Virus record (IMG/VR): IMGVR_UViG_3300042569_003487
Location: 64,001 to 128,000 of that record
Length of the DNA: 64,000 nucleotides
Origin: a virus
Direction: 5' to 3' (one strand)
Part shown: positions 1 through 27,638 of the stretch, piece by piece
How positions within the stretch are numbered: the stretch's first letter is position 1
Layout: the number at the start of each line of letters is the position of its first letter
Position numbers and translations under genes: made by a program
The notes under the pieces: generated by a model
Seen by the model: the letters and a program-made list of their open reading frames with translations, nothing else
What the model was told of the DNA's origin: nothing
Database searches by the model: none

Positions 1-2
1 CG

Positions 3-239
3 ACCGTATACTCCGGCTAGTGTGGTATGAGTTGTCTCTTCGCCAGTTTCTGCATTAATGTATTGAGACACAAGGTCCTCTTCTACAATCGTAATATCGT
101 ATTTAATAAATGTTTTAGTACCATCAATTGAATAACGAAGAGTTTCAGCTGAGGTTTGGTGAACCTGACCAAAATCAATAGATTCTACATCAGTCGATGG
201 AATAATTAACCATCTGCGGTTTGGAAATTGTGTGCTCAT
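3..239 (-). CDS. Small conserved phage protein, runs off the window edge
   Basis: Not in the ORF track because it is truncated. ATG at 239 reads MSTQFPNRRWLIIPSTDVESIDFGQVHQTSAETLRYSIDGTKTFIKY... with no stop before the edge. AATAAATA box directly upstream. Confidence 0.75.
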   Translation of the reverse strand, partial: MSTQFPNRRWLIIPSTDVESIDFGQVHQTSAETLRYSIDGTKTFIKYDITIVEEDLVSQYINAETGEETTHTTLAGVYG

Positions 240-2874: not shown

Positions 2875-3570
2875 TTATGATAAGCCATCATTTTGTAAGC
2901 CAGTTCGACTTGAAAGAGCCTGATAATTTTTAAGAATTTCAGAGTTTGAGAGAGGCCGATTATAAATCTTAACATTTTTGATTTTACCATTAAGATTAAA
3001 ATATCCACCTGCATAGGTTTCACGACCGATCATTGTATTACCGGCATCGCTTGTAAGAGGGCGATCATTTTGGCTACCAGTATAATCACCGCCGGTTTGA
3101 ACCCCATTAACAAAGAAATTGTTAACGCCCCTAGACCTTCTCCAAGTTACATAATACCATATACCAGTATTAAAGGTATAGGGCACAGATATGTATGGCC
3201 GCCTCATTTCAATAGAAGCATTATTTTGATTTATCGCAAATGCCCAATGTTCAACATTCCAGTTACCAGACGAAACTAGAGTTCCATGATAATTATCATG
3301 ATTGCCTCTTACTGAAAAAAGAACTTCCATTGTAAGATCATCTAAATCAGTAAAATTTCGTTCAACATTAATATAAGAGCCATAATCTGGCTCAAAATTG
3401 AAAACCTTACCATTCAGATAAGATTCACTCATATTAGAAGATAACGTATAACCATTTAGGGAAAGATCGTAAACGGTTTGGCCAGATCCTGGATAACAGC
3501 TAGGATCCGCTGCTTCGACATAAAGTTGAAGTCCGCTTAATTCAATTCTTGGATTATAGTGTAGTGCCAT
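2875..3570 (-). CDS. LamG/concanavalin-A-like domain protein, short form without insert
   Basis: GLQLYVEAADPSCYPGSGQTVYDLS, WYYVTW, FFVNG, LNGKIKNVKIYNRPLSNSEILKNY. Confidence 0.8.
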   Translation of the reverse strand: MALHYNPRIELSGLQLYVEAADPSCYPGSGQTVYDLSLNGYTLSSNMSESYLNGKVFNFEPDYGSYINVERNFTDLDDLTMEVLFSVRGNHDNYHGTLVSSGNWNVEHWAFAINQNNASIEMRRPYISVPYTFNTGIWYYVTWRRSRGVNNFFVNGVQTGGDYTGSQNDRPLTSDAGNTMIGRETYAGGYFNLNGKIKNVKIYNRPLSNSEILKNYQALSSRTGLQNDGLS

Positions 3571-3824
3571 TATGCTTGAGTTGCTGCTGCATTTTTTGCC
3601 TTATTATGAAATATTTGAGCATAGAACGCAAAATTATGGGTGATAAGACCAAATTCAGGCGAGCCTATATGAATAGCCCCTTCTTCGCGTTCACAAATAA
3701 AGAATATAGTTGAATTTACATCAATAATTCCTACAACTTTCATTCTTGAATTTGCTCCAATATTATAATAAGTGTCTAACTCATAGACAGCTTCTTCGAT
3801 TTGATATGATTGTAAATTTTGCAT
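3570..3824 (-). CDS. Hypothetical protein (84 aa)
   Basis: Coupled on both sides (TAATATG upstream, TAATG downstream). No recognisable motif. Confidence 0.7.
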   Translation of the reverse strand: MQNLQSYQIEEAVYELDTYYNIGANSRMKVVGIIDVNSTIFFICEREEGAIHIGSPEFGLITHNFAFYAQIFHNKAKNAAATQA

Positions 3825-3825
3825 A

Positions 3826-5145
3826 TTATACGATTCCTTCTTTTCTATTATGTGATACTACATCTTCAATTACATAAGTATGTGCTTGATCAACTTCAAT
3901 TTGAATAACCGGTAATTCTCCAAGTTCCTCAATTGATTCAATTTCCGCAATACCATCTATAGTTTGTACTTTTGCACCAACCCATAGTTCTGATAAGGCT
4001 ACAAATCCCATACTTTCAGTTAAAAATTTGTGATTACTTGATACCTTTAAAGTTTTTCCACCAATTACAGTTTGACTTACAATATTGGTTGCAGGGTTTG
4101 CTAGGGTCACCTGGTATGATCCCCATTCACCAGTATGCTCGTGTTTAGTGTAAACATAATCTCCAACTTTAAGATCTCCTGCCATCACCCAAGTGTTAGG
4201 GGCAATTAGGATTGGCATATCTGGGGTTGGACAGACTCCAGATCCACACACCTCGTTAAGGTTACCATATCCACCATATGCGATTTCAAATCCACAGAAA
4301 AGATATTCTCCCCAGCAACAAGCCCAACCTTCAACTCGGTTATTATTACAATCAGTACCTTGCCACCAACCGCTTCCATCTGAATAAAAGCTATAACAGT
4401 CTTCGGCTGGAGGAACATATCCGCATGATGCAGAATTACTCTCAATTAAAGTCGAATAGGTTCCATTACAGCCATCTGAATAAGTATAATAAAGATTGTA
4501 ACCTGAACAATATTGACTTAGGTATGTTCCGTATGATGGAGAACAACAACAGCCTCCGCATGCAGTGGTACAACCTTGGTTTGTATCGTAAGTTCCGCAG
4601 CTACCGTTTGCATATCGATAATAAAGAATACAGCCTGAACAGTATTGACTTAAGTAAGTTCCATAGGCTGGACAGCCGGCTCCAGTAGTTATACTAAGTT
4701 GATTTGAATATCCAGAATAACCATTAGTTGAAGTACAAGTTATACGTACTCTTATTAAATATGTTGTACTTGCAGAAAGTCCGCTAATTGTTTTGGTTCC
4801 TTCGCAGCCTCCAGTATTGTTACTCCAGCTGCTACCTCCATTTGAGCTATATTCAACGTGCATTGCTGTACAATTTGAATAACTTACATTAATTGTAATT
4901 GAACTTGATGTACTTGAATTACTTGAAATACTTGGTGCATTACAACAGGCAAATGTATGGTTATAACCTCGCCACTCAGACATTGCCGCAGAATTGGCTG
5001 AACTAGGTCTACTTGGCGAGCAACTGTTAATTGCAACATATCCGCCATCCTCAGCTGATCCTAAACTAATTGGCGCTGCTGCGTTTCTTCCTAACTCAGA
5101 ATTAATCTGACTCATTCGGATTGCACCGCTGCTCGGTAATGCCAT
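3826..5145 (-). CDS. Cys-rich fibre-associated adhesin-like protein with FN3 domain and C-terminal Hint domain
   Basis: N-terminus MALPSSGAIRMSQINSELG is typical of genes that follow phage fibre genes. FN3 (ISGLSASTTYLIRVR), two YGTYLSQYCSG repeats, Hint C305...SSNH...H432-N433. Confidence 0.8.
   Translation of the reverse strand: MALPSSGAIRMSQINSELGRNAAAPISLGSAEDGGYVAINSCSPSRPSSANSAAMSEWRGYNHTFACCNAPSISSNSSTSSSITINVSYSNCTAMHVEYSSNGGSSWSNNTGGCEGTKTISGLSASTTYLIRVRITCTSTNGYSGYSNQLSITTGAGCPAYGTYLSQYCSGCILYYRYANGSCGTYDTNQGCTTACGGCCCSPSYGTYLSQYCSGYNLYYTYSDGCNGTYSTLIESNSASCGYVPPAEDCYSFYSDGSGWWQGTDCNNNRVEGWACCWGEYLFCGFEIAYGGYGNLNEVCGSGVCPTPDMPILIAPNTWVMAGDLKVGDYVYTKHEHTGEWGSYQVTLANPATNIVSQTVIGGKTLKVSSNHKFLTESMGFVALSELWVGAKVQTIDGIAEIESIEELGELPVIQIEVDQAHTYVIEDVVSHNRKEGIV
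3847..4233 (-). other. Hint (intein-like/BIL-type) autoprocessing domain, about 129 aa, no endonuclease
   Basis: Block A CPTPDMPIL...AGDLKVGDYV, block B KVSSNHKF, block F/G VIQIEVDQAHTYVIEDVVSHN. The +1 residue is Arg. Confidence 0.85.
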
Positions 5146-5146
5146 A

Positions 5147-8100
5147 TTATGCTCCTCTTAATTTTTTAACTTCTGCTTTAAGCTCTTCAATTTGTACTTG
5201 TTGAGCTTTAATAGATTCAATAAGTAGGGAGACTGTGTTTCCGTAAGAAACTGAAAGCTCACCATTTGCATTTTCAGATACGGCTTCAGGCAGGGCTTCT
5301 CGCATTTCCTGTGCAATAACTCCAGTATATCTTTTAGTAGGATCGGCTAAGTCTGTACGTGTAAATGTTACACCTCTAACTTTGCTAAGTCTTTCCAATG
5401 GATTATCAATTACCTCTATATTTGCTTTTACCCTAGCATCCGAATACGCAATAATATCGCCAATACACCAAATTGTATCTGAAATTGCAGTCCAAGTTCT
5501 ACCTACATTTTGTACTAACATACCATGGTTAGTTAAGTTGGCAGCTTCTCCGCCAGCATTTGGGTGGGACCATGCTATACCGTAATGATTGGCACAACTT
5601 GTACCGTCAGCCGCTAGCTTATAGGCATCGCCCATCGCAAATACACCTTGGAATCTCGTTGAAGTATAAACTCCAACTACAGTATTACCATAGTTATCAT
5701 CGATATAAAAGTTACCATTTGCTCGGGTTGCTCGAGCTGCAGTAATTGACCAAGAACCCGATGCAACTCCACGAATAATATCGGCTGCAACCGTTGTTGT
5801 TGCAGATCTATGATAGCTATCACCATTTTTAATTACAAATCGAGTTATTCCACTTTCATCATTATCAGTTGTGTTAATATATTGGAATCTTCCATAACCG
5901 CCGGCTGGATAAATTTCAGCCGTACCTGATGAAGAGTATACGCTATTTCCGCTATGCCATAGAATTGGGTACCATGAGCCTGAACCATTTCCTGAGTTAA
6001 CGGTTACAGTTGATGCAATTGTTGCAGAACTCGCTGAACTTGCAGAACTTGCTGAACCAGCTGAGTCTGCATATGCAACCTGAACTCCACTTGGGTGGTT
6101 TGATGTTAATTGCCAGTAAGATCCTGTCCAGTTAGCTCTAACATAATAGTCAGTAGGGTGAGATTCTGCCCATAATTTAAGAGCACCGTCTGCTCGGCTA
6201 ACCGTTTGCGATCCAATATTACCTGAGTGAATCATTTCGACCCAACTTCTAGGCGTATCCCAAGCACTTCTCCAAAACCATCTGTTATTTGCCTCTTGTG
6301 AACAAACCATTTGCCAACCATGGAATCTAGAACCATCCGAATTGTTATAATGGAATGCTTGCATTCCAACATAATGAGAAGAGGCACCAGGACCATTAGC
6401 GGGTGTTGACCAGGTATCAAAAAACCCAGACCCCCAATAAGAACCTATAGTATTAAGATCATATTGACCCCAACCCATTGCTCCTGTTTGATAAAGAGCT
6501 CCTTGTGCTGCTCTAGTACTCCATGGAGAATTGCTCTGTTTAGAGTTTAAACTATGTCTGTTTAGAGTAGCATCACCAAATCTATAAAGATTAGATGTAC
6601 CATTAGGATCTAAATAATAACCAGTATCATCTGAATCGTAGAATATTGGAGATCGCATTGAACCTGCTGCTTCCATATAAACGTCTGAATAAACTCGACC
6701 GTCTTCGATTAAAAGTCTACGGTTACCGCCTCTCATAATACTTACGTTATGGCCAGTATAACTACCAATATAAACCTGATCTGGCGTATGCACATAAATT
6801 CCAGCTTGAATACCTGGAGTCCTCGCCTCTACTACAAATCGGGTATGCGGTGCATTACTAAACCATACTTGGGTACCCCATCCCCCTGGATCTGACCAGT
6901 TACTTCCAGAATCTCCAACATAAAGATTTCGGATTCGGGATGATCCGGCTGGATCTAGGTAAAATGCACTATTGTCATTATCATAAAATGCTGCAGCATA
7001 CATGCCGGCACCAGTTATCCAGTTTCCACTATCATCACACCAACTACCCCAACTACCACTTTGATTTAAGAATCCAATTCGGTTAGAGTTACAATGAATT
7101 TCGCGAGTTCCTTCATCTGAATCGTGCATAAAGATTGATGAAGCACCTACTCCCTGCCCAACCGTAAGATTTCCATAAAGAGTAGTACTTCTGGCACTGT
7201 CTGTTAACAGCGACCAGTTTCCAGCATTATTCAAGAATCCAATATTATTAGAAGTATCAGCATAAACATATCCGCGAATAGTGCTTTGGTGATTACTTCT
7301 AAACACAAGTTCAACTACTCCGCCACTACCGGTAACTGTCCATCCAGATCCATTGCTTGAATAGAAATGAGTTCCGGTTGCCTGGTTGTATACACCTTCA
7401 TTTGTATTATAATTTCTAAACCATCCATAATTGTATACATTGGTAAAGGTAACTGCGTCTGATGTTCTAACATATTGATTCATATTGGAAGGATACGGAT
7501 CGGCTGATGTATTTAACGCTCTAAACCAGCCAGACCAGTCGTCAGCGCCTCTCCTAAAATATAAGTTGTCATAGGCGTATGGAATATAAATTTGAGCGCC
7601 TCTAGTTCTATTACCAATACCCCAAAGACTTGCATTATATGCAGCATCAGGGCCACCGTAACCGTTTATTGGGCCATATCCATCTAAGTTAACGGTGTAT
7701 TGTCCATCTAGGTCATTTAAGTTACCAACATTAACTTGATAACCAAGATTTCTTGTATATCGGCCATCTGCTGTTGCTTGTGACATACCTCCGCTTGGAA
7801 TAGTTACAGAGTTACCGCCGCTAATCGTAAGCGTAGATCCGTTGATACTTAAGGTTTGTCCATCGCTATTAGTATCTGTATCAATATCATTAAATGCTGC
7901 AGTTAAAGTTGAGCCATCACCTAAAGTTAAGGTTAAAGTTTTGGTTGAACTTCCACTAAATGCAACTCCAGTTGGGCGTTTATTATATGCAGTATTCCAG
8001 TTTGAAGCTGAGCTAATATATGAATCGCTAATTGCAGTACCATTCCAAACTGCGTTAGATAAAGTAGCGCCGCCCCAGCTCATATTTCCAATAATAGAAA

Positions 8101-9901
8101 ATGCACTACCATTCCACATGATTCTTCCTTGATAATCAGTTGCGCTATTTACAAAATCAATATAGGCGCCGGCCGTTCCGTATAATTGCAATTGAGCATA
8201 ACCATCTGCTAAATTGAATCCCATACCAGGATTAGTTAAGTTATATCTAGATGAAGAGGTGCTTCTGTCACCTACATAAAATGGAAATTTAGCATCAACT
8301 GAATCGCTATTAATTGCTATTTTACTATCTGAAATTGTTATTGAATTTGCACCATATTTACCAATTTTAACTGTGCTATTTGCTAGCACTTCAATAATAG
8401 GTAAACCTGCAATAGTATTAACACTATAAATGGTGTCTAACACTGAATCAGTTACGGTAAATAATCGACCATTAACCCCGTCTACTGCTAGGACATCGGC
8501 TCCATCGGTTGAACCCTTTACATATACAGTCGCGGAAGGCAATGAATATGCATAATTGGCAACCCCAACTGCTAATCTATTTTCAAGATTTAAGTAACTA
8601 GTTATAGCAGATGTACCTGAATGCCATCTACCTAATCGATATACGCTAGCTCCTCCAGCAGATGCGGTAAATGTGATACCTCTAACATTAGAACCTCCAC
8701 TTTGCATAGTATTAATTAATAAATCATGGTGGCCGCTTACTGCACTAGTATACCATTGAGTATTACCGGCTCCAATCCAAAAATCCTGATGTCCTTGAAA
8801 ATGGACATTTGTAATTGTACCGTTTTGACCGTTTAGGGAACCACTATCCCAACCTGAACTTGCTCCAAAATAAGAATATCTTCCATTTACATAAATTTCA
8901 CCAAATGTTGGGTTTGCTCCAGTTTGAACGCTTTGGTTTAACCAACTAGAAAGCCAAGTACTTCTAGTTCCTAAATATAAATCGCCGCTTGCTCCAAAAT
9001 TACCGTTTGTCCATAATCCAGAGTTTGCTTGGTATAAGTAATATGATGTTTGACCCGATGGATAAATTCCGCCTGTCATTATTAAATTTCCGCCGTTATC
9101 TACATCAAGAATATTTGTTCCGTCTGATCTTCTAAAAAAGAAGTTTCCCCCGCCTCTATTTTGAAAATATAGATGGCTTGAGTGCCACTGTATTTTATTT
9201 TGTTCACCTGTCCAAGCTCCATGCGTTCCAACATATGCAGCACCTGCATCTAATGTAAGGCTACCTGACATTGAGTCTCCTGATGCATTTACAAATCTTG
9301 AATCAGATTCAGATTCAGTATAATATCTGTCATCATGACTATGGCTAATTGCAGCAAATCTTGAATCAGATTCCGATTCAGTATAGTATCGGTCATCGTG
9401 ATTATGTGAAGGAAGAGCTGTTAAGTAGCTTTGAGAAGTTACCCAGCTGCGAAGAGCTAGCGGTTCATTATCTACTGCAAATAGACCATCTGCTCGAACT
9501 CCAAATCGTTGAACGTGTCGATTTCCCCAATGAAATGTAATTGCAGGGGCATAGTTCCAATCACTTTGGTTAGATCCAACATATCCTTGTTCACGGATTT
9601 GAATCGCACCTTCATATACTCCAGTTCCAATAGAAGGTATGTAGAGTTGGCCAGTCATTGTACCACCAGATAGGGACAGTTTTCCAGCTAGAGAGTTTGT
9701 TAGTGTACTAGCAAAACTTGCATCATCTCCTAATGCAGCAGCCAATTCATCAAGGGTATTTAAAGCACCAGGTGCACCTGCAATTAAGTTATTAATTTGC
9801 GTAGTAACATAAGAGGTTGTTGCAATTGAGTGGTCTGCCATGTTACCGGCATGAATTGCAATATGTCCATTGATTGTGGTTCCGTGTATTAATTGTGCCA
9901 T
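5147..9901 (-). CDS. Long tail fibre with C-terminal peptidase S74 intramolecular chaperone
   Basis: GAPGALNTLDELAAALGDDASFA fibre motif, HxHDDRYYTESE repeats, YD.D...YLDP repeats, C-terminal YSDARVKANI...GVIAQE...VSYG plus coiled coil. Confidence 0.9.
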   Translation of the reverse strand: MAQLIHGTTINGHIAIHAGNMADHSIATTSYVTTQINNLIAGAPGALNTLDELAAALGDDASFASTLTNSLAGKLSLSGGTMTGQLYIPSIGTGVYEGAIQIREQGYVGSNQSDWNYAPAITFHWGNRHVQRFGVRADGLFAVDNEPLALRSWVTSQSYLTALPSHNHDDRYYTESESDSRFAAISHSHDDRYYTESESDSRFVNASGDSMSGSLTLDAGAAYVGTHGAWTGEQNKIQWHSSHLYFQNRGGGNFFFRRSDGTNILDVDNGGNLIMTGGIYPSGQTSYYLYQANSGLWTNGNFGASGDLYLGTRSTWLSSWLNQSVQTGANPTFGEIYVNGRYSYFGASSGWDSGSLNGQNGTITNVHFQGHQDFWIGAGNTQWYTSAVSGHHDLLINTMQSGGSNVRGITFTASAGGASVYRLGRWHSGTSAITSYLNLENRLAVGVANYAYSLPSATVYVKGSTDGADVLAVDGVNGRLFTVTDSVLDTIYSVNTIAGLPIIEVLANSTVKIGKYGANSITISDSKIAINSDSVDAKFPFYVGDRSTSSSRYNLTNPGMGFNLADGYAQLQLYGTAGAYIDFVNSATDYQGRIMWNGSAFSIIGNMSWGGATLSNAVWNGTAISDSYISSASNWNTAYNKRPTGVAFSGSSTKTLTLTLGDGSTLTAAFNDIDTDTNSDGQTLSINGSTLTISGGNSVTIPSGGMSQATADGRYTRNLGYQVNVGNLNDLDGQYTVNLDGYGPINGYGGPDAAYNASLWGIGNRTRGAQIYIPYAYDNLYFRRGADDWSGWFRALNTSADPYPSNMNQYVRTSDAVTFTNVYNYGWFRNYNTNEGVYNQATGTHFYSSNGSGWTVTGSGGVVELVFRSNHQSTIRGYVYADTSNNIGFLNNAGNWSLLTDSARSTTLYGNLTVGQGVGASSIFMHDSDEGTREIHCNSNRIGFLNQSGSWGSWCDDSGNWITGAGMYAAAFYDNDNSAFYLDPAGSSRIRNLYVGDSGSNWSDPGGWGTQVWFSNAPHTRFVVEARTPGIQAGIYVHTPDQVYIGSYTGHNVSIMRGGNRRLLIEDGRVYSDVYMEAAGSMRSPIFYDSDDTGYYLDPNGTSNLYRFGDATLNRHSLNSKQSNSPWSTRAAQGALYQTGAMGWGQYDLNTIGSYWGSGFFDTWSTPANGPGASSHYVGMQAFHYNNSDGSRFHGWQMVCSQEANNRWFWRSAWDTPRSWVEMIHSGNIGSQTVSRADGALKLWAESHPTDYYVRANWTGSYWQLTSNHPSGVQVAYADSAGSASSASSASSATIASTVTVNSGNGSGSWYPILWHSGNSVYSSSGTAEIYPAGGYGRFQYINTTDNDESGITRFVIKNGDSYHRSATTTVAADIIRGVASGSWSITAARATRANGNFYIDDNYGNTVVGVYTSTRFQGVFAMGDAYKLAADGTSCANHYGIAWSHPNAGGEAANLTNHGMLVQNVGRTWTAISDTIWCIGDIIAYSDARVKANIEVIDNPLERLSKVRGVTFTRTDLADPTKRYTGVIAQEMREALPEAVSENANGELSVSYGNTVSLLIESIKAQQVQIEELKAEVKKLRGA
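9284..9409 (-). repeat. Two tandem 63-bp (21-aa) repeats SHxHDDRYYTESESDSRF
   Basis: SHNHDDRYYTESESDSRFAAI / SHSHDDRYYTESESDSRFVNA, starts at 9409 and 9346. Confidence 0.9.
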
Positions 9902-9906
9902 ATTAG

Positions 9907-12900
9907 TTATCTATTTTCAAGATCGTCAATTCTCTTGGTTAAATTTTTTATAAGTTCTTGTTGTTCTTGAATAGTTTTAATCAAGATTGGTGCAATACGC
10001 GTATAGTTAATACCATCGACTTGACCAGCATCATCATATTTAATTAATTCAGGGTAGATTTCAGCAACCTCTTCTGCAATTAAACCAATTTCAGTTGAGC
10101 CAGTTCCACCAATTTTGGTATAGTAAACAGGTCTTAGTTGTAATACTTTGTCTAGTGCTGGAGTTAAGGACTCAACATTAGTTTTATATCTAATAGATGA
10201 TAATTCTACCAATCTATTTGAAAGAGTTAAGGTACCTCCAGTATCAAATGTCATTCTAACATTATTGTCTGGAACGTATACAAACTGTAAATTTCCAGTC
10301 TGGTTTGAATTATCATTTGGCGAATCACAAATAAACCAACTTTCCCATTGAATTCCTTCTCCAAATCCAGAATCTGACATTGTAATATGTCCAACTCCAT
10401 CTAAGTTATTATTGGAAAAATTAACTGTTCCAGTAATAGTTCCACCGCTTAGTGGTAGATAATAACCATCAATTACTTGACTTCTAAAGTGGGCTGGTGT
10501 AGATTTTCTTAGGTAGTTATCACTTGTATTTTGTGTCCAAATCTGACCAATCGTTGGGTTTTCTGAGTTACCATTAGATGCATTAAAATAGGTTCCTAAG
10601 ACATAGTTTGAATAGATATTTCCACTACTGTCTCTTCGTACAATTGTATTTACATTGGCAACAGTATCTGCATTATATCCATCCAATAAGTCAGCATCTA
10701 ATCCAGAACCTGCTCCATCATTTCCAGCGTGCCATATAGTATTGCCATTATATGTAAATCCAGTAAGATTTTCAAAATAAAGTGCTCTTGAGTTGTTAAT
10801 GTATATTCGACGAGCAATATCAGCATCAGCTGAACTCCTAGTATAAACTGCATAATCTGTATAGTATGCATTAGCTGTACTATATCCATCAAAACCGATT
10901 CGACCAACAATAGTTCCATCGGGCTTAGTTTGTTCAATCCATGAATTATCATCATTTGTTAATAATCTAAGGTTATTATAACTACCTGTGTTTCTGATCA
11001 CTAGATCACCTGTCATAGTGTCTCCACTTGTATTAACCCATACATCAGATACTCCAGTAATATAACCTTGAGAAGTTACCCATGATTGAGTTGCAAGTAA
11101 GTTACCTCCACCATACGGCACATTTCTAAAATATGCAACATTGGCAGATGTTATTTCAAGTGCAACTGAAGTAGGTTCATAAATATCACCGTACCCTAAT
11201 TTAAAGCTATCTGTGTTATTATTATTGGTCATTCCCATTGACCACATAGGCATTCCAGTATAATCCCATGCAACACCTTGTGAAACATTCATTCCAGTGG
11301 TAAACATTAAGGTTGCCTGATTTCCACTAGCCTCTCGATTAATGAATACTCTTGAAGTTCCAGTAGATGCGCTAACATATAATTCTGGGTTGGTTCCGAC
11401 CAATTGGATTTGTGCTGGATTGCTTGATGGATAAACATACAAGTTGCCACTCATTGAGTCTCCTGTTACATTAACATAGAGAGAATCGGCTGTTCCTTGT
11501 GAAATACCTCCAGTTGGAAGCGTAATTGAGTTACCTCCACTAATTGAAAGAGTACTTCCATTTAAAGTTAGGGTTTGAGCATCAGTATTTGTATCAGTAT
11601 CGATATCTGTCCAGCTTGCAGTCACAGTACCTCCATCTCTTTGAGTAAGAGTTAAGGTTTTAGTTGAGGTTCCGCTTACTGAGGCAGAAGTTATAGTATC
11701 ATTATATGCAGAGTACCAATTTGCAGATGTACCATGACTTGGAGTTGAAATACCACTTGCATTAATTGTAATTGGTGCAGAGAAAGGTCCTAATTTAACT
11801 GTATTATTTGCAAAGGCTTCTATTACTGGAAGACCTGCAATTGTATTTACAGAAAATAGGGAATTTGAAAGATCATCGGTAACCGTAAATAGTCGACCGT
11901 TAACTCCATTTACTGCAAATAATTCTTGTCCACTTGTTACTCCGCTAATTACTAAAGGTCCAGTCATTGAATCTCCAGTAATATTTACGTATAGAGGATC
12001 AGCTGCAGCTTGAGTTAACCAGCCACCATAATTTCCAAGCGAGCTTCTTACATGAGCAAGGGTAGATTTTCTTAACCAACCATCTCCATTTGATGTAAAG
12101 AAAGAATTAATACTTGGATTTTCGGTTTCACTAACATTAGTATTAATATAATTAGCATAAATATAACCGTTACCATCTCTAATAACTACAGTGTTTGCTC
12201 CAACTGAACCCGATGCATGATAACCATCTAATAAGTCTGCATCTAAGCCAGAACCTGATCCGTCATTTCCTGGATGCCATGGAGTATAACCTAGAGCAGT
12301 AGTAACATTTGCTGAAGTAATTCCAGTAATATAACCGGAACCATTTGTAAGCTGGTTATTATTTGTAATAGTATTTGTAATTGTAACCTGTTGGTTTGAA
12401 GTACTAACCGAAATACCTGCTCCGGCTACTGCGCTTAATAAACCAGTATTATTAATAGTAACCTGTTGATTTGATGTACTAACAGTAATACCTGTACCAG
12501 CGGCTGCACTTAATAAACCAGTATTATTAATAGTAAGGTTTTGGTTTGAAGTACTTACTGTGATACCTGTGCCTGCCGTTGCACTAAGTAGAGCAGTTGT
12601 ATTAATAGTAAGGTTTTGGTTTGATGTGCTTACTGTGATACCGGTTCCAGCCGTTGCCGATAGTAAGGCAGTTGTATTGATCGTAAGATTTTGATTGGAT
12701 GTACTTACGGTAATACCTGTTCCAGCGGTCGCAGACAATAATCCAGTATTTGTAACAGTAACTGCGCCGGTAGTCGAGTTTACTGAGATTCCGGTTCCGG
12801 CCGATACCGAAGAAACGCCAGCCGTAATTGTCCAAGATCGGTTTGCCGATAAGTCATAGGTTGTACCATTAATTGTAAGGGTACGGGAAGTAGGAACATA

Positions 12901-15900
12901 TCCAGATAAAGCAGCTGAAGTAATATAACCTGGACCATTTGTTAATTGATTTAAGTTAGTTAGGTTACCACTATGCCAAATTAGGTGTCTAACTGCTCCG
13001 AGTGACCATCCGCCCCATACTAAGTCATTTTCTACACCGCCTAATCCAAAATAACCGGCGTAATCCCCTTCAATGTGAAATGTAATATATGCATCTCTGC
13101 CTGCAGAGTCTTGTAATATCGTTAATCCTCTATCGCCAGCCGCAACCACGTCAACCGTTGTGCCTGAGGTTTGATAAAATCTTGTAGTTCTAGCCGTAGT
13201 ATCACCACGAGAAATTACACTATCAAGAGTATCGGTCTCAGTATAACCAGTAATATAACCTGGACCGTTTGTTAATTGGTTAAGGTTAGTTATTGTATTT
13301 GTAACCGTAACGTCTCCTGTAGTCGAGTTTACTGAGATTCCAGCGCCGGCCGATACTGAAGAAACTCCAGCTGTAATTGTCCAGCTTCTATTTGCTGATA
13401 AGTCGTAGGTTGTACCATTAATAGTAAGAGTACGAGAGGTTGGAACATATCCGGAAAGTGAGGCAGACGTAATATAACCTGGGCCATTTGTTAATTGATT
13501 TAAGTTAGTTAGGTTACCGGCATGCCATATAACATTATTGCCATATGTTAAATCACCTGGACCAGTTCTACCTAGCGCAGTATTGTCAGCTTCACCAAAT
13601 ACAATGTATGCTTCATTTGGGTCTTGTGCACCCTGAATTCTAAATGTATTAGCTAAGTTAATGTCTCCTATCCAAGCATCATCACCTATTCGAAAGTTTG
13701 TACCATTACCATTATTTGTTGTTATAACTGAATCGACAGTTATTTGAGCGGTTGAGGTTGCGCCTCTTCCAACTACACTTGCAAGGGTATCAGATTCCGC
13801 TGTTAAATATACGTTTGAATCTAGTGTCCACGTATTTGTTCCTGTTCTTTTTAAGAAACCAGTTGCGGTCAATCCAGCAATTGCAGTTAGGTCTCCGTCT
13901 AATGGTTGATATGTAGTAGAGGCAGTTCCAGTAGTTAAATAGGTATTTGAATCAACTGAACCATCTGCTTTTAAAAATTGACTTGATGTTCCTCCAACCT
14001 TAATAAAGGATCTGCCTGTAATATCGTTTGCAGCAAGATCTGCAAGTGCAAATGAAGCATGTGAAGTATCAATAAATGGAGAAGCATCTGGTTCTGGCGT
14101 ATATCCCTTAAAGAATTTCCAAGTATTATCAGTTGCATCTCTAAATAATCCGGCATGGGCATAAGAACCATCATTGTAACCAGCAGCAAATCCTAAATCT
14201 GGATTAGCATTTGATTTAGCTCTTGCAGTACCACCTGAACTATAGGATCCAGTTGCACTATTTGCAATTGTAAATGAGTTTGTTGAAACTCCAGTAATTA
14301 TTTGATTTGATAAGTTGTATGCAGTTGGACTTACACCAGTAATAGTAACTGACATTCCAATAACATAGTTATGGGTCTCTTGCGTTGTATAAACTACGCT
14401 TGAACCATTTCCTACTGCATTTGTAATTGTAGTAGCAATTCCATTGTTCAGATAAATCATGTTATCTGATACTGCTAGGTTTTGCGCATAAACTGTAGTC
14501 GTAGTACCTCCAATTATTAAGTTTCCTACTACATTAAGATCTCCACCAACATATAGATTCTTTGCAATACCTACACCGCCTGCTGTAACGATTGTTCCAG
14601 TTGAGGTTGATGTTGCTTGCGTTGTACCCGAAAAAGTTTTAATTCCTGCAATAGATTCATTACCTGTGGTATGGACAACATTTGCATCATTGGCTGGTGT
14701 AAATCCTAACCAGCCTGCAATTGTTTTATTAACCCATAAGGTTCCATCGTATCCTAAAATATGTCCATTAACTGGAACAGTTGTAATTAGGTCAACATCA
14801 TGAATTTCCTTTAGTTCAAATCCATTTTGAACTTTAACAAAGATCTCACCAGTATTTGCATTTTTTCTGGTAACAATACCGATAAAAACAAGATGTCTAG
14901 GCGCATATGGCTTATTAGGTAAACCATAAATTAAGTTTCCATTATCGCCTAACCAAACTGGATCACCTTCAGTTCCAGCTAGAGACGTATCTAATCCGGC
15001 TAAAAGACCCTCTGTTACAACATTGGCCATTCCATTGATTGCAACGGTTGCATCTAAGAGACCCATTGTTTTTGATGAAGTTGCTTCACTTCCATTTGAT
15101 GCAAGATCTACAATCATATTGGTTCCATCTGCACTTGTTACATAAACAGCTTGACCTTTATTAATTGCAACGGCTGCTTTTACACCATGTTGAACTCTTG
15201 ATACATAGCTAACCGTATCAATTGTCCAAGCCCTGTTTGCGCTTAGGTCATATGAAGTTCCATTAATAGAAAGGGTTCTAGAAGTTGGTACATAGTTTGG
15301 AGTCCAATTAACCCATTGAGATCCATTAAATTGTAATAATTGTCCAGTTGCGGCTAATGAAATTGTAACATCAGTTAGGCTATCTAAATTAGTAGGAATT
15401 GAAATATTTGTTGCAGATACTGCAGTAACCAAACCTTTGCCGTTAACTGTAATCACAGGAACTGCTGTTGCTGAACCAAATGTTCCAACGTTTGAGTTAA
15501 CTGTTGCTAAGGCTAGGCCAATATTTCCGTTTGAAGTTAAAGGAGAGTTTGCAATTACAAAATCAGAACCAGTAATTCCAACTGAAGTTAAGGGTGGAGT
15601 TACTGTATTGTAACCAATCGTCCACCAATAAGTTGTACCATCATAATAAACACCTAGAACATCTGTTGCATTTGCAGCAGAGCTTGCTGTATATGAACCT
15701 CCACCAACGATTGAACTTCCTCCAGGTAGAGTTAAGGTACGACCGCCGGCTGCATCTTGTTTAACTAAGATTAAACCAGTATCGCCGGCTTCCATATTGG
15801 CAATAACTAGAGTTCTTGCTCCAGCAATGGTTACCTTTGCATTAGCACCAGAATTAAAGTCCCAAGTAATAGCGGCGCCATCAGTTAGGGTCTGTTGAGC

Positions 15901-16077
15901 CATCGTAACTTTACCATTAACCTTAAGATTTCCACCAATTGTGAATTTTTTGGCAGACTGTAGGGTTAGGGTAAGATTACCGGCATTATCATGTTGTAGG
16001 ACTGGCTTATTAGCAACGTTATCGCCAATAAATTCTAGTAAGCCTGTTGCTGGGGTTATCTTGACCGTTTGCGCCAC
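9907..16077 (-). CDS. Very long tail fibre (2056 aa, GTG start) with internal repeats and C-terminal peptidase S74 chaperone
   Basis: WHxGNDGxGSGLDADLLDG twice, NLNQLTNGPGYIT repeats, C-terminal SSIRYKTNV...LRPVYY...GLIAEEV...INY plus coiled coil. Confidence 0.9.
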   Translation of the reverse strand: MAQTVKITPATGLLEFIGDNVANKPVLQHDNAGNLTLTLQSAKKFTIGGNLKVNGKVTMAQQTLTDGAAITWDFNSGANAKVTIAGARTLVIANMEAGDTGLILVKQDAAGGRTLTLPGGSSIVGGGSYTASSAANATDVLGVYYDGTTYWWTIGYNTVTPPLTSVGITGSDFVIANSPLTSNGNIGLALATVNSNVGTFGSATAVPVITVNGKGLVTAVSATNISIPTNLDSLTDVTISLAATGQLLQFNGSQWVNWTPNYVPTSRTLSINGTSYDLSANRAWTIDTVSYVSRVQHGVKAAVAINKGQAVYVTSADGTNMIVDLASNGSEATSSKTMGLLDATVAINGMANVVTEGLLAGLDTSLAGTEGDPVWLGDNGNLIYGLPNKPYAPRHLVFIGIVTRKNANTGEIFVKVQNGFELKEIHDVDLITTVPVNGHILGYDGTLWVNKTIAGWLGFTPANDANVVHTTGNESIAGIKTFSGTTQATSTSTGTIVTAGGVGIAKNLYVGGDLNVVGNLIIGGTTTTVYAQNLAVSDNMIYLNNGIATTITNAVGNGSSVVYTTQETHNYVIGMSVTITGVSPTAYNLSNQIITGVSTNSFTIANSATGSYSSGGTARAKSNANPDLGFAAGYNDGSYAHAGLFRDATDNTWKFFKGYTPEPDASPFIDTSHASFALADLAANDITGRSFIKVGGTSSQFLKADGSVDSNTYLTTGTASTTYQPLDGDLTAIAGLTATGFLKRTGTNTWTLDSNVYLTAESDTLASVVGRGATSTAQITVDSVITTNNGNGTNFRIGDDAWIGDINLANTFRIQGAQDPNEAYIVFGEADNTALGRTGPGDLTYGNNVIWHAGNLTNLNQLTNGPGYITSASLSGYVPTSRTLTINGTTYDLSANRSWTITAGVSSVSAGAGISVNSTTGDVTVTNTITNLNQLTNGPGYITGYTETDTLDSVISRGDTTARTTRFYQTSGTTVDVVAAGDRGLTILQDSAGRDAYITFHIEGDYAGYFGLGGVENDLVWGGWSLGAVRHLIWHSGNLTNLNQLTNGPGYITSAALSGYVPTSRTLTINGTTYDLSANRSWTITAGVSSVSAGTGISVNSTTGAVTVTNTGLLSATAGTGITVSTSNQNLTINTTALLSATAGTGITVSTSNQNLTINTTALLSATAGTGITVSTSNQNLTINNTGLLSAAAGTGITVSTSNQQVTINNTGLLSAVAGAGISVSTSNQQVTITNTITNNNQLTNGSGYITGITSANVTTALGYTPWHPGNDGSGSGLDADLLDGYHASGSVGANTVVIRDGNGYIYANYINTNVSETENPSINSFFTSNGDGWLRKSTLAHVRSSLGNYGGWLTQAAADPLYVNITGDSMTGPLVISGVTSGQELFAVNGVNGRLFTVTDDLSNSLFSVNTIAGLPVIEAFANNTVKLGPFSAPITINASGISTPSHGTSANWYSAYNDTITSASVSGTSTKTLTLTQRDGGTVTASWTDIDTDTNTDAQTLTLNGSTLSISGGNSITLPTGGISQGTADSLYVNVTGDSMSGNLYVYPSSNPAQIQLVGTNPELYVSASTGTSRVFINREASGNQATLMFTTGMNVSQGVAWDYTGMPMWSMGMTNNNNTDSFKLGYGDIYEPTSVALEITSANVAYFRNVPYGGGNLLATQSWVTSQGYITGVSDVWVNTSGDTMTGDLVIRNTGSYNNLRLLTNDDNSWIEQTKPDGTIVGRIGFDGYSTANAYYTDYAVYTRSSADADIARRIYINNSRALYFENLTGFTYNGNTIWHAGNDGAGSGLDADLLDGYNADTVANVNTIVRRDSSGNIYSNYVLGTYFNASNGNSENPTIGQIWTQNTSDNYLRKSTPAHFRSQVIDGYYLPLSGGTITGTVNFSNNNLDGVGHITMSDSGFGEGIQWESWFICDSPNDNSNQTGNLQFVYVPDNNVRMTFDTGGTLTLSNRLVELSSIRYKTNVESLTPALDKVLQLRPVYYTKIGGTGSTEIGLIAEEVAEIYPELIKYDDAGQVDGINYTRIAPILIKTIQEQQELIKNLTKRIDDLENR
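12367..12816 (-). repeat. Six tandem 75-bp (25-aa) repeats, LLSATAGTGITVSTSNQNLTINTTA-type
   Basis: Unit starts at 12816, 12741, 12666, 12591, 12516 and 12441 (75-bp period). Confidence 0.9.
12745..13527 (-). repeat. Dispersed duplication of an approximately 78-aa fibre segment, 549 bp apart
   Basis: WHxGNLTNLNQLTNGPGYITSAxLSGYVPTSRTLTINGTTYDLSANRSWTITAGVSSVSAG starts at 13527 and 12978. Partial third copy near 15220-15295. Confidence 0.9.
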
Positions 16078-25987: not shown

Positions 25988-26599
25988 TTATCGATTAGTA
26001 TTAGCGAAAAAGTATCTATAATCTTGCTCCAAAACAATTGAGGCTGGAATAGATGCTTTTAAAGTTCGGTTTGGATATCTTATGATTCGGTCAATAATCT
26101 TAGAGTCAGTAGGATAGTCACGAGTTAATTCTACTAAGTATTCTCCTATTAGAGTTACGTCAGGTGAATTACGGCGGTCGACTAAAAACGAACCCTCAGA
26201 GGAGTCCTTTTTTAAAAATCCTATCTTTTTATGAGTAATCTGTGTTGGCTTAAAATCTAGCGAAGTTATTTCAGAAAATGAAATATCGTGAATTAACTGG
26301 CTTGACCATTGTACGTCAATTAAAATTGCACTAGTATTTAGGGCTAAGTCGTACATTAAATATAGATCTCTTTCGAGCTGAGCATTATCAACAGTATCTG
26401 ACAATAAAACCAGATCGACATCCCAAGTTGAATTAAAGTCATATAAAATTCCACCGGTTATATGCACAGAATATCGTTTAAGAATATCTGTATTGAATTG
26501 TAATTCCAATAAAAAGTTTTTAACACTTTCGTATGAGGGTCTATTCCACGGAATCGTCGTCGATACCTTACCAATTTGATAATAAAATGGGAGCCCCAT
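25988..26599 (-). CDS. Minimal Pol-beta-superfamily nucleotidyltransferase
   Basis: hG[G/S]-x9-DxD motif (ITGGILYDFNSTWDVDLVL) plus a third Asp in ILIDVQW. Start reassigned to ATG 26599 (TAATATG junction). Confidence 0.7.
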   Translation of the reverse strand: MGLPFYYQIGKVSTTIPWNRPSYESVKNFLLELQFNTDILKRYSVHITGGILYDFNSTWDVDLVLLSDTVDNAQLERDLYLMYDLALNTSAILIDVQWSSQLIHDISFSEITSLDFKPTQITHKKIGFLKKDSSEGSFLVDRRNSPDVTLIGEYLVELTRDYPTDSKIIDRIIRYPNRTLKASIPASIVLEQDYRYFFANTNR

Positions 26600-26600
26600 A

Positions 26601-27638
26601 TTACTGGAAGCTTTGATAGAAACCTCCACCGCTTGACATTCCACCACCGCCAGAATAACCACCTGAATAGTAAGTTTCACCACCAGAATAAGTAAAGGTT
26701 GAACTTGTAATTGGTGCAGTATAACTAAATACTAGATCAATTTCGGTAATCGTTTGATTTGATAATGCAGGGGTTGGGTTTGTACCTGATCCAATTAGTT
26801 CTTGATTAAATGGTATGCTTGTACTTTGTGAGCCGGTCGTCGGAGACTTTAACTGCCAATAAGAGAAAGAATAACCAGAAGGAAGCGACGAAGAAACTGA
26901 TACGTTAACATTTTGATTACTACTAAATGATCTAATAATTTGATTAGAGTTTCCAGATTGAGGAATACCTGCAAAACCATTTGATGTAATTGTAATGTAT
27001 GAAGATAGAGTACTTGATGAAATTGATGCTCCAGTTGTTCTAATTAAATTTACTTTAAAAATACCTCCATAAAAAGTTGCAGCAGTCGCAGATGCACCAA
27101 CGGCAGGGGCATAATTTGCAGAAATAATTCTCCAAGTATAAGTTTGAGGAGTAGCTAATCCTCTAGATGTACGTTGACACTGAACGGTTACCGAGTTAAT
27201 TGGAAGGTTTGCAACAGTTGTAATAGCAGCACTAGTTAAAGGAAGAGCCGATAAATTTATTACAGTTGTATCAGTATTACCTGATGTAAACTTAACTTCG
27301 ATTGGCGAACTTTTTTGATTAACTAAAACATAGGTCCTGTGCAAAACTTCTGCAGTAGGCGACGGTAGAACCATGCTAGTAATTGCGCTAGTCGATCCAG
27401 CGTATACAGCATAGTGTCCATTATTTAGTTCTAATGCTCCACTCTTGTCACTTCCAAAATAGGCGACCGACGGCAAACTTAATGATCCATTAAGCATAAA
27501 GTGTGAAGTTGGATTAGAAAGAACTGCATCCATGGTTGCATCTTCATAATAATTAAACTTACCAGCTGCCATTCTACCATCACGAGTAACGGTAAATTTA
27601 ATAGCTTTTAGTACGTTAGATAGACTTAATGTTTTCAT
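26601..27638 (-). CDS. Probable virion structural protein, Ser/Thr-rich, Gly/Tyr-rich C-terminal tail
   Basis: Operon context and beta-rich composition. Ends YSGGETYYSGGYSGGGGMSSGGGFYQSFQ. Confidence 0.6.
   Translation of the reverse strand: MKTLSLSNVLKAIKFTVTRDGRMAAGKFNYYEDATMDAVLSNPTSHFMLNGSLSLPSVAYFGSDKSGALELNNGHYAVYAGSTSAITSMVLPSPTAEVLHRTYVLVNQKSSPIEVKFTSGNTDTTVINLSALPLTSAAITTVANLPINSVTVQCQRTSRGLATPQTYTWRIISANYAPAVGASATAATFYGGIFKVNLIRTTGASISSSTLSSYITITSNGFAGIPQSGNSNQIIRSFSSNQNVNVSVSSSLPSGYSFSYWQLKSPTTGSQSTSIPFNQELIGSGTNPTPALSNQTITEIDLVFSYTAPITSSTFTYSGGETYYSGGYSGGGGMSSGGGFYQSFQ

What the first reader, a model, noticed from the sequence alone, without database searches (positions are those of the whole stretch)
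3826..5145. Fibre-tip adhesin candidate ending in a non-splicing Hint domain: a self-processing or self-ligating virion protein
Seen: directly downstream of an S74 tail fibre, a 439-aa protein carries a fibre-associated N-terminus, FN3 and Cys-rich repeats. A linker (GSGV) leads into a compact Hint domain: C305, SxxH block B, H432-N433, then only RKEGIV. Known: splicing needs Cys/Ser/Thr at +1. Hedgehog and BIL Hint domains that lack it cleave, or transfer the N-terminal part via a thioester to an outside nucleophile. Inference: this is a domesticated processing module rather than a selfish intein. It could activate the adhesin C-terminus (Val304 thioester) for covalent coupling to another virion protein, a small molecule or a host surface, or act as a cleavable folding aid. 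This is my strongest candidate for an undescribed system here.
Basis: partly seen in the sequence, partly recalled or inferred. Interest (0 to 1): 0.78.

Follow-up and report, generated by a model that had tools for sequence, protein, structure and literature searches.

The report
Self-removing Hint cap on phage fibre-associated protein
A tail-fibre-associated protein of an uncultured jumbo phage ends in a real, catalytically intact intein-like (Hint) domain of the bacterial-intein-like type. It is optional: close relatives lack it at the same spot, so it most likely cuts itself out after translation and is not an essential new virion chemistry.

Summary
Window 3826-5145 encodes a 439-aa protein with an N-terminal module, an FN3 domain, a Cys-rich region, the linker GSGV, and a 129-aa Hint domain (C305, S369-x-x-H372, H432-N433) followed only by RKEGIV.

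The predicted fold and the sequence both match the Clostridium thermocellum type-A bacterial intein-like (BIL) domain best (PDB 2lwy).

Three results are new here:
- **Hint-less orthologues exist.** They sit in the same gene order and carry a homologous short tail (…CG|KKGGGGIV against …CGSGV|Hint|RKEGIV).
- **The cassette caps other tail genes.** The same Hint family caps two other tail-module genes in related phages, while this phage's copies lack it.
- **The Hint is a conserved island.** It is under purifying selection and is the nucleotide-identity peak of a mosaic, hypervariable locus.

A lysine follows His-Asn at +1 or +2 in 115 of 121 related domains.

Best reading: a self-excising, optional BIL-type cassette that cleaves, and may re-join its tail through an amine. 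It is not a fixed domesticated module. No biochemistry exists.

This scan has met the same fibre-capping, lysine-flanked Hint family on other DNA many times. I found no paper on it and no close relative in deposited phage genomes.

The parts
5147..9901 (-). Upstream 1584-aa tail fibre with a C-terminal Peptidase_S74 intramolecular chaperone domain (context)
   Evidence: Pfam PF13884 E 3e-12 at residues 1487-1541. Many PHROG tail-fibre families match. Its stop lies 1 nt before the next start.
3826..5145 (-). Whole 439-aa ORF (P0001), including the stop codon at 3826-3828
4948..5145 (-). N-terminal module, residues 1-66 (M-A-L-P-S-S-G…I-N-x-E-L-G-R), shared with many otherwise unrelated phage proteins
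   Evidence: Dozens of IMG/VR loci match only residues 1-64..1-90, at 44-70% identity. Model confidence is low here.
4675..4947 (-). FN3 domain, residues about 67-157
   Evidence: VIA-align Z 14.3, rmsd 2.3 A over 94 residues to NCAM FN3. Pfam fn3 is only weak (E 0.04).
4246..4674 (-). Cys-rich beta region, residues 158-300. It holds two repeats of about 44 aa and ends at the conserved C300.
   Evidence: 18 Cys in residues 156-304. Block-mean pLDDT is mostly 82-95, lower (69-73) between the repeats. The fold is not assigned.
4234..4245 (-). Linker G301-S302-G303-V304. V304 is the -1 residue of the predicted scissile bond.
3847..4233 (-). Hint domain C305-N433 (129 aa, mini, no endonuclease insert), with C305, S369/H372, H422 and H432-N433
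3829..3846 (-). Six-residue C-extein R434-K435-E-G-I-V439. K435 is invariant in all 41 copies of this Hint lineage.
3570..3824 (-). Conserved 84-aa ORF directly downstream. It is present in both Hint-bearing and Hint-less loci and matches no family.

Best explanation
The last 135 residues are a lysine-flanked, type-A-BIL-like Hint cassette sitting in the short flexible C-terminal tail of a fibre-operon protein (N-terminal module, FN3, Cys-rich region).

Inferred chemistry, by homology with published BIL and intein reactions:
1. C305 attacks the V304 carbonyl, giving a thioester (N-S acyl shift helped by S369/H372).
2. N433 cyclises with help from H432/H422 and breaks the N433-R434 bond.
3. With no +1 Cys/Ser/Thr, the thioester is resolved in one of two ways. 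Water can attack, leaving a mature protein that ends at V304. Or an amine of the released tail can attack (the alpha-amine of R434 or the epsilon-amine of the invariant K435), which re-joins the tail RKEGIV.

Either way the product is close to what Hint-less alleles encode directly.

What is shown:
- the fold
- the intact catalytic set
- purifying selection on the Hint
- presence/absence of the Hint among orthologues at one site
- the same cassette on other tail genes
- the lysine rule

What is inferred:
- that cleavage happens
- which nucleophile resolves the thioester
- that the cassette is dispensable or neutral for the host protein rather than an assembly aid
For: - **Fold and closest relatives are BIL domains.** 2lwy comes first by sequence (E 1.1e-6) and by structure (TM 0.84). 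Tetrahymena BIL2 (6y75) comes next.
- **The catalytic set is conserved.** C305, S369, H372, H422, H432, N433 and K435 are invariant in 41 copies. The Hint is the most conserved part of the protein: 84% mean pairwise identity against 68-76% for the other regions.
- **Selection is purifying.** dN/dS of the Hint is 0.02-0.21.
- **A natural Hint-less orthologue exists.** L002 has the same order: fibre end, 307-aa gene, 84-aa gene, then a further gene. It reads …PCG|KKGGGGIV* where the window reads …VCGSGV|C305…N433|RKEGIV*. This is a clean in-frame presence/absence. That protein's N-domain is 83% identical to a Hint-bearing one, but at most 66% identical to any other Hint-less one.
- **A different Hint lineage occupies the same site.** P0048 and P0055 carry it (CLLGD…THN|KK), also downstream of an S74 fibre.
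- **The cassette caps other genes.** Orthologues of window ORF 26601-27638 carry the same Hint family (50% identity) near their C-terminus, and the window copy does not. A 730-aa relative of window ORF 27653-29290 carries it too.
- **Family survey.** A profile search found 655 cluster representatives at E<=1e-10. Among 121 CPxP-type domains, K is at +1 in 72 and at +2 in 43, and only 2 have Ser/Thr at +1. Tails are 30 aa or shorter in 54.
- **The published chemistry fits.** Type-A BILs have His-Asn and no +1 nucleophile, mostly cleave, and can splice by aminolysis (PMC4031507). BIL2 forms a Lys epsilon-NH2 isopeptide (PMC8616854).
Against: - There is no biochemical or proteomic evidence of any cleavage.
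- Pfam PT-HINT and Intein_splicing both score below their cut-offs.
- A cassette that is merely tolerated would not obviously be the best-conserved part of the protein. That level of conservation could mean it benefits the phage, for example as a folding, timing or capping aid.
- Topology tests do not reject a single Hint-bearing clade (p-AU 0.25 and 0.73). The number and direction of gains and losses are therefore open.
- No endonuclease or other mobility function is visible near the element.
- The role of K435 is pure inference.
Confidence: 0.6

Rival explanations
1. Cleavable assembly or folding aid. Like the S74 chaperone on the neighbouring fibres, the Hint would keep the Cys-rich protein soluble or unassembled until it docks, then cut itself off. 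In this reading it is beneficial, not merely tolerated.
For: - The Hint is the most conserved segment and is under purifying selection.
- It sits in an operon whose two fibres both use a self-cleaving C-terminal S74 module.
- The family is often found at the extreme C-terminus: the tail is 30 aa or shorter in 54 of 121 domains.
Against: - Orthologues with an 83% identical N-domain do without it.
- The same cassette sits on unrelated host proteins, and is internal or in tandem in many others. That is not what a chaperone tuned to one client would look like.
Confidence: 0.17
2. Thioester-driven conjugation. The V304 thioester would be attacked by an outside nucleophile: a lysine of another virion protein, a host-surface group or a small molecule. 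The protein's C-terminus would become covalently attached.
For: - Hedgehog and Tetrahymena BIL2 show that Hint thioesters can be passed to outside nucleophiles (PMC7664689; PMC8616854).
- BIL2 is the second-best structural match.
- There is no +1 nucleophile to compete.
Against: - Hint-less alleles encode the same protein with a free tail, so attachment cannot be required.
- There is no adduct-recognition region after the Hint, only six residues.
- The conserved lysine lies within the element's own flank, which favours a reaction in cis.
- No conserved partner gene distinguishes Hint-bearing from Hint-less loci.
Confidence: 0.12
3. Conserved recombination handle or selfish cassette. The Hint DNA would persist because it is a block of near-identical sequence inside a hypervariable locus. 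It would spread, or promote the swapping of the neighbouring receptor-binding modules, by homologous recombination between co-infecting phages. The protein chemistry would only make it harmless.
For: - The Hint is the nucleotide-identity peak of the locus (0.91-0.99 against the three closest loci). The fibre end and the LamG genes fall to 0.3-0.6 in two of those three.
- In the closest pairs, Hint dS is below both flanks, e.g. 0.26 against 1.05 and 0.98.
- BIL domains are described as lying in hypervariable regions and as contributing to rearrangements (PMC7765530).
Against: - dS rests on about 129 codons and a simple estimator.
- Each host gene has its own Hint lineage (about 50% identity between genes), so recent gene-to-gene transfer is not seen.
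- No endonuclease is present.
- Low dS could also come from constraint on the sequence.
Confidence: 0.08
4. Inactive structural domain that stays on the protein in the virion.
For: No cleavage has been shown for any member of this clade.
Against: - Every catalytic residue is invariant in 41 copies and is kept across hundreds of distant relatives.
- The Hint holds no cysteine other than C305.
Confidence: 0.03

Closest known systems
Type-A bacterial intein-like (BIL) domains, e.g. Clostridium thermocellum BIL (PDB 2lwy; Amitai 2003, Dassa 2004 and Aranko 2013, as cited in PMC4031507)
   Same: - Best match by sequence and by structure.
- Cys1, block B His and a C-terminal His-Asn.
- No +1 Cys/Ser/Thr.
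- Block F reads HTY, as in 2lwy.
- Lies in a hypervariable, non-conserved protein.
- Expected to cleave at both ends, and perhaps to ligate by aminolysis.
   Different: - Found in a phage structural protein, at the extreme C-terminus with a 6-aa tail.
- Belongs to a clade with its own start motif (CPxP).
- A lysine is almost invariant at +1 or +2.
- Activity is untested.
Tetrahymena thermophila BUBL BIL2 (PDB 6y75/6tmm)
   Same: - Second-best structural match.
- A BIL whose thioester is passed to a lysine epsilon-amine, giving an isopeptide. This is a precedent for a role of K435.
   Different: - BIL2 is eukaryotic and flanked by ubiquitin-like domains that it conjugates to targets.
- Here the flanks are a Cys-rich domain and a hexapeptide.
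- Sequence identity is only 17%.
Pfam PT-HINT (PF07591), the pre-toxin Hint of polymorphic toxins
   Same: - Best Pfam hit.
- Some clade members pass its cut-off (P0130 30.5 bits, P0144 28.3 bits).
- A self-cleaving Hint that releases whatever follows it.
   Different: - This protein scores 23.1 bits, below the 27.7 cut-off.
- No toxin or other domain follows the Hint.
Class 1 mini-inteins (gp41-1, Npu/Ssp DnaB, Mtu RecA)
   Same: - Same fold (TM 0.75-0.85).
- Same Cys1 and His-Asn.
- Present or absent among alleles at one site.
   Different: - No +1 nucleophile.
- Not located in a conserved site of a replication or repair enzyme.
- The C-extein is only six residues.
Peptidase_S74 intramolecular chaperone of tail fibres and endosialidases
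   Same: - A C-terminal, self-removing module on phage fibre proteins.
- It is present on both neighbouring fibres.
   Different: - Unrelated fold and chemistry (Ser-Lys dyad protease in a trimer).
- S74 is needed for folding, whereas this Hint is optional.

Membership tests
HINT superfamily (fold) | Horseshoe-like all-beta Hint fold | tested here: met
   Foldseek against PDB: 2lwy TM 0.84, rmsd 2.3, E 6.8e-8, followed by dozens of inteins. Model block-mean pLDDT is about 78-90 over most of the Hint.
Type-A BIL domain | N-terminal Cys/Ser nucleophile and block B (T/S)xxH | tested here: met
   C305, S369 and H372 are invariant in 41 copies.
Type-A BIL domain | C-terminal His-Asn | tested here: met
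   H432-N433 are invariant.
Type-A BIL domain | No Cys/Ser/Thr at +1 | tested here: met
   R434 in this protein. In the relatives the first two tail residues are RK 31, GK 6, KK 4, VK 3, KI 2, and TK, AK, IK, KV 1 each. Only 2 of 121 clade domains have S/T at +1.
Type-A BIL domain | Sits in a hypervariable region of a non-conserved protein | tested here: met
   The locus is mosaic. The fibre end and LamG genes fall to 0.3-0.6 nucleotide identity between relatives.
Type-A BIL domain | Autocatalytic N- and C-terminal cleavage, with minor splicing | not testable with these tools
   Needs expression of the wild type and of C305A and N433A mutants, followed by mass spectrometry.
Pfam PT-HINT (PF07591) | Score at or above the gathering cut-off | tested here: not met
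   23.1 bits against 27.7.
Pfam PT-HINT (PF07591) | A toxin or other cargo domain downstream of the Hint | tested here: not met
   Only six residues follow N433.
Canonical (class 1) intein | Cys/Ser/Thr at +1 for transesterification | tested here: not met
   R434.
Canonical (class 1) intein | Sporadic presence/absence at one insertion point among orthologues | tested here: met
   Syntenic Hint-less allele L002. 42 Hint-less against 43 Hint-bearing relatives. The direction of change is unresolved.
Canonical (class 1) intein | Homing endonuclease domain, or a nearby free-standing one | tested here: not met
   The Hint is a 129-aa mini domain. The neighbouring ORFs match no endonuclease family.
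Hedgehog/Hog autoprocessing domain | Adduct (sterol) recognition region after the Hint | tested here: not met
   The protein ends six residues after the Hint.

The most novel reading that the evidence does not exclude
The unit is 'Hint plus one lysine': a self-excising cassette that re-joins its flanks, or cross-links to a neighbour, through the lysine epsilon-amine. That would be isopeptide splicing without any Cys/Ser/Thr. The cassette would move among phage tail-protein tails without an endonuclease, and it would double as a conserved recombination handle in hypervariable receptor-binding loci.
Probability: 0.2. Interest if true: 0.75.

Novelty: new variant of a known kind. Interest (0 to 1): 0.5.

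Why it matters
Inteins and BIL domains are known mainly from replication enzymes and secreted bacterial proteins. A large, lysine-flanked Hint clade that caps phage tail proteins is not in the papers I could search. It has no close relative among 50,697 deposited phage genomes.

This locus is a good test bed for three reasons:
- Nature supplies the control, a Hint-less orthologue with a homologous tail.
- The three possible outcomes (cleaved at V304, tail re-joined by a peptide bond, tail re-joined by an isopeptide bond) give distinct mass-spectrometry signatures.
- The domain is only 129 aa and has a single cysteine.

If the lysine proves to be the acceptor, this would be a natural nucleophile-free ligation module of practical interest for protein engineering. 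If the domain only cleaves, it is one more self-removing cap on phage fibres, which is ordinary.

Tried and rejected
- **GenBank phages.** tblastn of the whole protein against 50,697 records found no match. The Hint alone hit only canonical terminase inteins, at 23-28% identity.
- **GTDB species genomes.** A pattern scan gave two weak partial hits. The pattern method is narrow, so this does not show the clade is absent from bacteria.
- **Family libraries.** NCBIfam gave nothing useful. PHROGs gave only a weak FN3-region hit.
- **Second copy in this record.** There is none in the 141,925-bp record.
- **Tree-based claim of repeated gain or loss.** The quick tree needed at least 3-4 changes. The AU tests did not reject one Hint-bearing clade (p 0.25). 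Holding the 26 closest Hint-bearing rows together without the Hint-less P0045 gave a better likelihood than the free search. I therefore rest the presence/absence argument on synteny, pairwise identity and tail homology, and not on topology.
- **Remnant Hint downstream of ORF 26601-27638.** I looked for one in the space there; the 231-aa overlapping ORF shows no similarity to the Hint.
- **Fold of the Cys-rich region.** It is unassigned, because the FN3 domain filled the structural hit list.
- **Canonical intein, Hedgehog-type and pre-toxin readings.** All three were rejected on the +1 residue and the six-residue tail.

Full report
**What is there**

The window is bases 64001-128000 of a 141,925-bp IMG/VR virus record that CheckV estimates as 55% complete. 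It is a jumbo-phage fragment. It encodes a GroEL-like chaperonin, a ribonucleotide reductase and a long run of very large structural genes.

The finding's ORF is on the minus strand at 3826-5145 and is 439 aa long. It is packed into an operon with 1-nt gaps, in this order:
- a 2056-aa fibre with a C-terminal Peptidase_S74 domain
- a 1584-aa fibre, also with Peptidase_S74
- this protein
- a conserved 84-aa ORF
- three LamG-type proteins

**Anatomy of the protein**

- Residues 1-66 form a module that dozens of other phage proteins share as their only similarity to this one.
- Residues about 67-157 are an FN3 domain (Z 14.3, rmsd 2.3 A over 94 residues).
- Residues 158-300 are a Cys-rich beta region with two repeats of about 44 aa (18 Cys in residues 156-304).
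- After the conserved C300 comes the linker GSGV.
- C305 to N433 form a 129-aa Hint domain.
- The chain ends with RKEGIV.

**The Hint domain is real and of BIL type**

- The sequence search of solved structures puts the C. thermocellum bacterial intein-like domain 2lwy first, at E 1.1e-6. RecA and gp41-1 mini-inteins follow at E 0.01-0.03.
- The AlphaFold2 model (mean pLDDT 78; block means about 78-90 over most of the Hint) superposes on 2lwy at TM 0.84. Tetrahymena BIL2 comes next, then mini-inteins.
- Pfam alone would not have called it: PT-HINT scores 23.1 bits against a cut-off of 27.7.
- In 41 full-length copies of this Hint lineage, C305, S369, H372, H422, H432, N433 and K435 are invariant.
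- The Hint is the best-conserved part of the protein, at 84% mean pairwise identity against 68-76% for the other regions.
- Its dN/dS is 0.02-0.21.
- It contains no cysteine other than C305.

**The Hint is optional**

The homologue search returned two length classes: about 438 aa with the Hint, and about 300-316 aa without it. The short proteins end 2-12 residues after the cysteine that aligns with C300. The Hint therefore sits inside a short terminal tail.

One Hint-less protein, P0045, lies on a contig with the same gene order: fibre end, the gene itself, the 84-aa gene, and a further gene.
- Nucleotide alignment with the window breaks just before the Hint and resumes at the stop codon.
- The two alleles read …PCG|KKGGGGIV* and …VCGSGV|C305…N433|RKEGIV*.
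- Its N-domain is 83% identical to that of a Hint-bearing protein, but at most 66% identical to any other Hint-less one.

A second, clearly different Hint lineage (CLLGD…THN|KKLEEIM) occupies the same site in P0048 and P0055. These again lie downstream of an S74 fibre.

A quick tree of the N-domains needs at least 3-4 changes of Hint state. However, AU tests do not reject a single Hint-bearing clade, and the gene is visibly mosaic. I therefore do not claim a number or direction of gains and losses.

**The same cassette caps other tail genes**

- Window ORF 26601-27638 (345 aa, no Hint) is 72% identical to residues 1-312 of P0100.
- P0100 lies in a syntenic contig. It continues into a Hint that is 50% identical to this one and ends …SHN|KVSSYQAVV.
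- The window copy ends in a Gly/Ser-rich tail without any lysine.
- A 730-aa protein whose N-terminus resembles window ORF 27653-29290 carries the cassette too.

**Family survey**

A four-sequence profile found 6614 cluster representatives at E<=1e-3 and 655 at E<=1e-10. Among the best 149:
- Nearly all domains start with Cys and end in His-Asn.
- Many sit at the very end of the protein. Others are internal or in head-to-tail arrays.
- Of 121 CPxP-type domains, 72 have Lys at +1, 43 have Lys at +2, and 6 have neither.
- Only two have Ser/Thr at +1 and none has Cys.

The lysine tracks the Hint and not the host protein. Few Hint-less tails of the two host genes have one, and those that do (P0045, P0059) have it right at the junction.

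**Conserved island**

- Against the three closest loci, the Hint shows 0.91-0.99 nucleotide identity. The N-domain shows 0.63-0.89. The fibre end and the LamG genes fall to 0.3-0.6 in two of the three.
- In several pairs, Hint dS is below both flanks. For window against L090 it is 0.26, against 1.05 for the Cys-rich region and 0.98 for the 84-aa gene.
- The number of sites is small and the estimator is simple. I treat this as suggestive of separate, more recent ancestry or of sequence constraint.

**How it most likely works**

Published knowledge:
- Type-A BILs have His-Asn and no +1 nucleophile, mostly cleave at both junctions, and can splice when the amine freed by Asn cyclisation attacks the thioester (PMC4031507; PMC7664689).
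- BILs sit in hypervariable regions of non-conserved proteins (PMC7765530).
- Tetrahymena BIL2 forms a Lys epsilon-NH2 isopeptide (PMC8616854).

By homology, I expect the following here:
1. A V304-C305 thioester forms.
2. N433 cyclises.
3. The thioester is resolved by water, or by the R434 alpha-amine or the K435 epsilon-amine.

The product would match what Hint-less alleles encode. Because orthologues work without the cassette, an obligatory ligation or activation role is unlikely. The cassette's strong conservation leaves room for a benefit, such as a folding or timing aid or a recombination handle.

**Comparison and novelty**

- It works like, and passes every testable criterion of, a type-A BIL domain.
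- It fails the criteria for a canonical intein (+1 residue), a pre-toxin Hint (no cargo, below cut-off) and a Hedgehog-type domain (no adduct-recognition region).
- What differs from published BILs is the setting (phage tail proteins, extreme C-terminus), the CPxP start and the near-invariant flanking lysine.
- I found no paper on this and no close relative in deposited phages.
- Earlier stages of this scan have met the same fibre-capping family in more than 50 genomes and had already noted the lysine.
- This report adds the natural Hint-less orthologue with a homologous tail, the second and third host genes in one phage lineage, and the selection and identity profiles.

**Verdict**

This is a new variant of a known kind and is of moderate interest. 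Nothing here called for a referred step.

Noticed in passing
window 26601-27638 (-), with L004:8001-9377: This phage's 345-aa tail-module protein lacks a Hint. Its 72%-identical orthologues P0100 and P0097 end in the same Hint family, followed by K or IK and a short tail. This is a second presence/absence case in one phage lineage.
   Followed up: yes
window 25988-26683 (-): A 231-aa GTG-start ORF overlaps the end of the 345-aa gene by 83 nt. It fills the space that the Hint coding sequence occupies in the related contig L004. It shows no similarity to the Hint, Pfam or PHROGs, and it may not be a real gene.
   Followed up: partly
proteins P0196, P0154, P0155, P0181, P0172: Head-to-tail arrays of 3-4 or more PT-HINT-like domains (CFLxGT…VHN). 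Each is separated from the next only by K-G-G, inside proteins of about 850-1300 aa.
   Followed up: no
window 3570-3824 (-): An 84-aa ORF is strictly conserved downstream of this gene in every related locus, whether Hint-bearing or not. It matches no family and could be a fibre assembly factor.
   Followed up: partly
window 4948-5145 (-), residues 1-66: An N-terminal module (…S-x-I-N-x-E-L-G-R…S-E-W-x-x-Y-N-H) is shared at 44-70% identity by dozens of otherwise unrelated phage proteins in IMG/VR. It is probably a common docking adaptor.
   Followed up: partly
L003:15490-17039: The contig that carries the second Hint lineage (P0048) encodes CrAss_Ring_1 and CrAss_Ring_2 domain proteins near the fibre module. 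This fibre/adhesin cassette is therefore shared with a crAss-like lineage.
   Followed up: no
protein P0029: One of the 41 Hint copies has Thr at +1 (SHN|TKEGIY). It could in principle splice canonically, which makes it a natural variant worth testing next to the Arg+1 form.
   Followed up: no
window 9907-16077 and 5147-9901 (-): Two giant fibres in tandem (2056 and 1584 aa) both end in Peptidase_S74. Their C-terminal parts are among the most variable stretches of the locus between relatives.
   Followed up: partly
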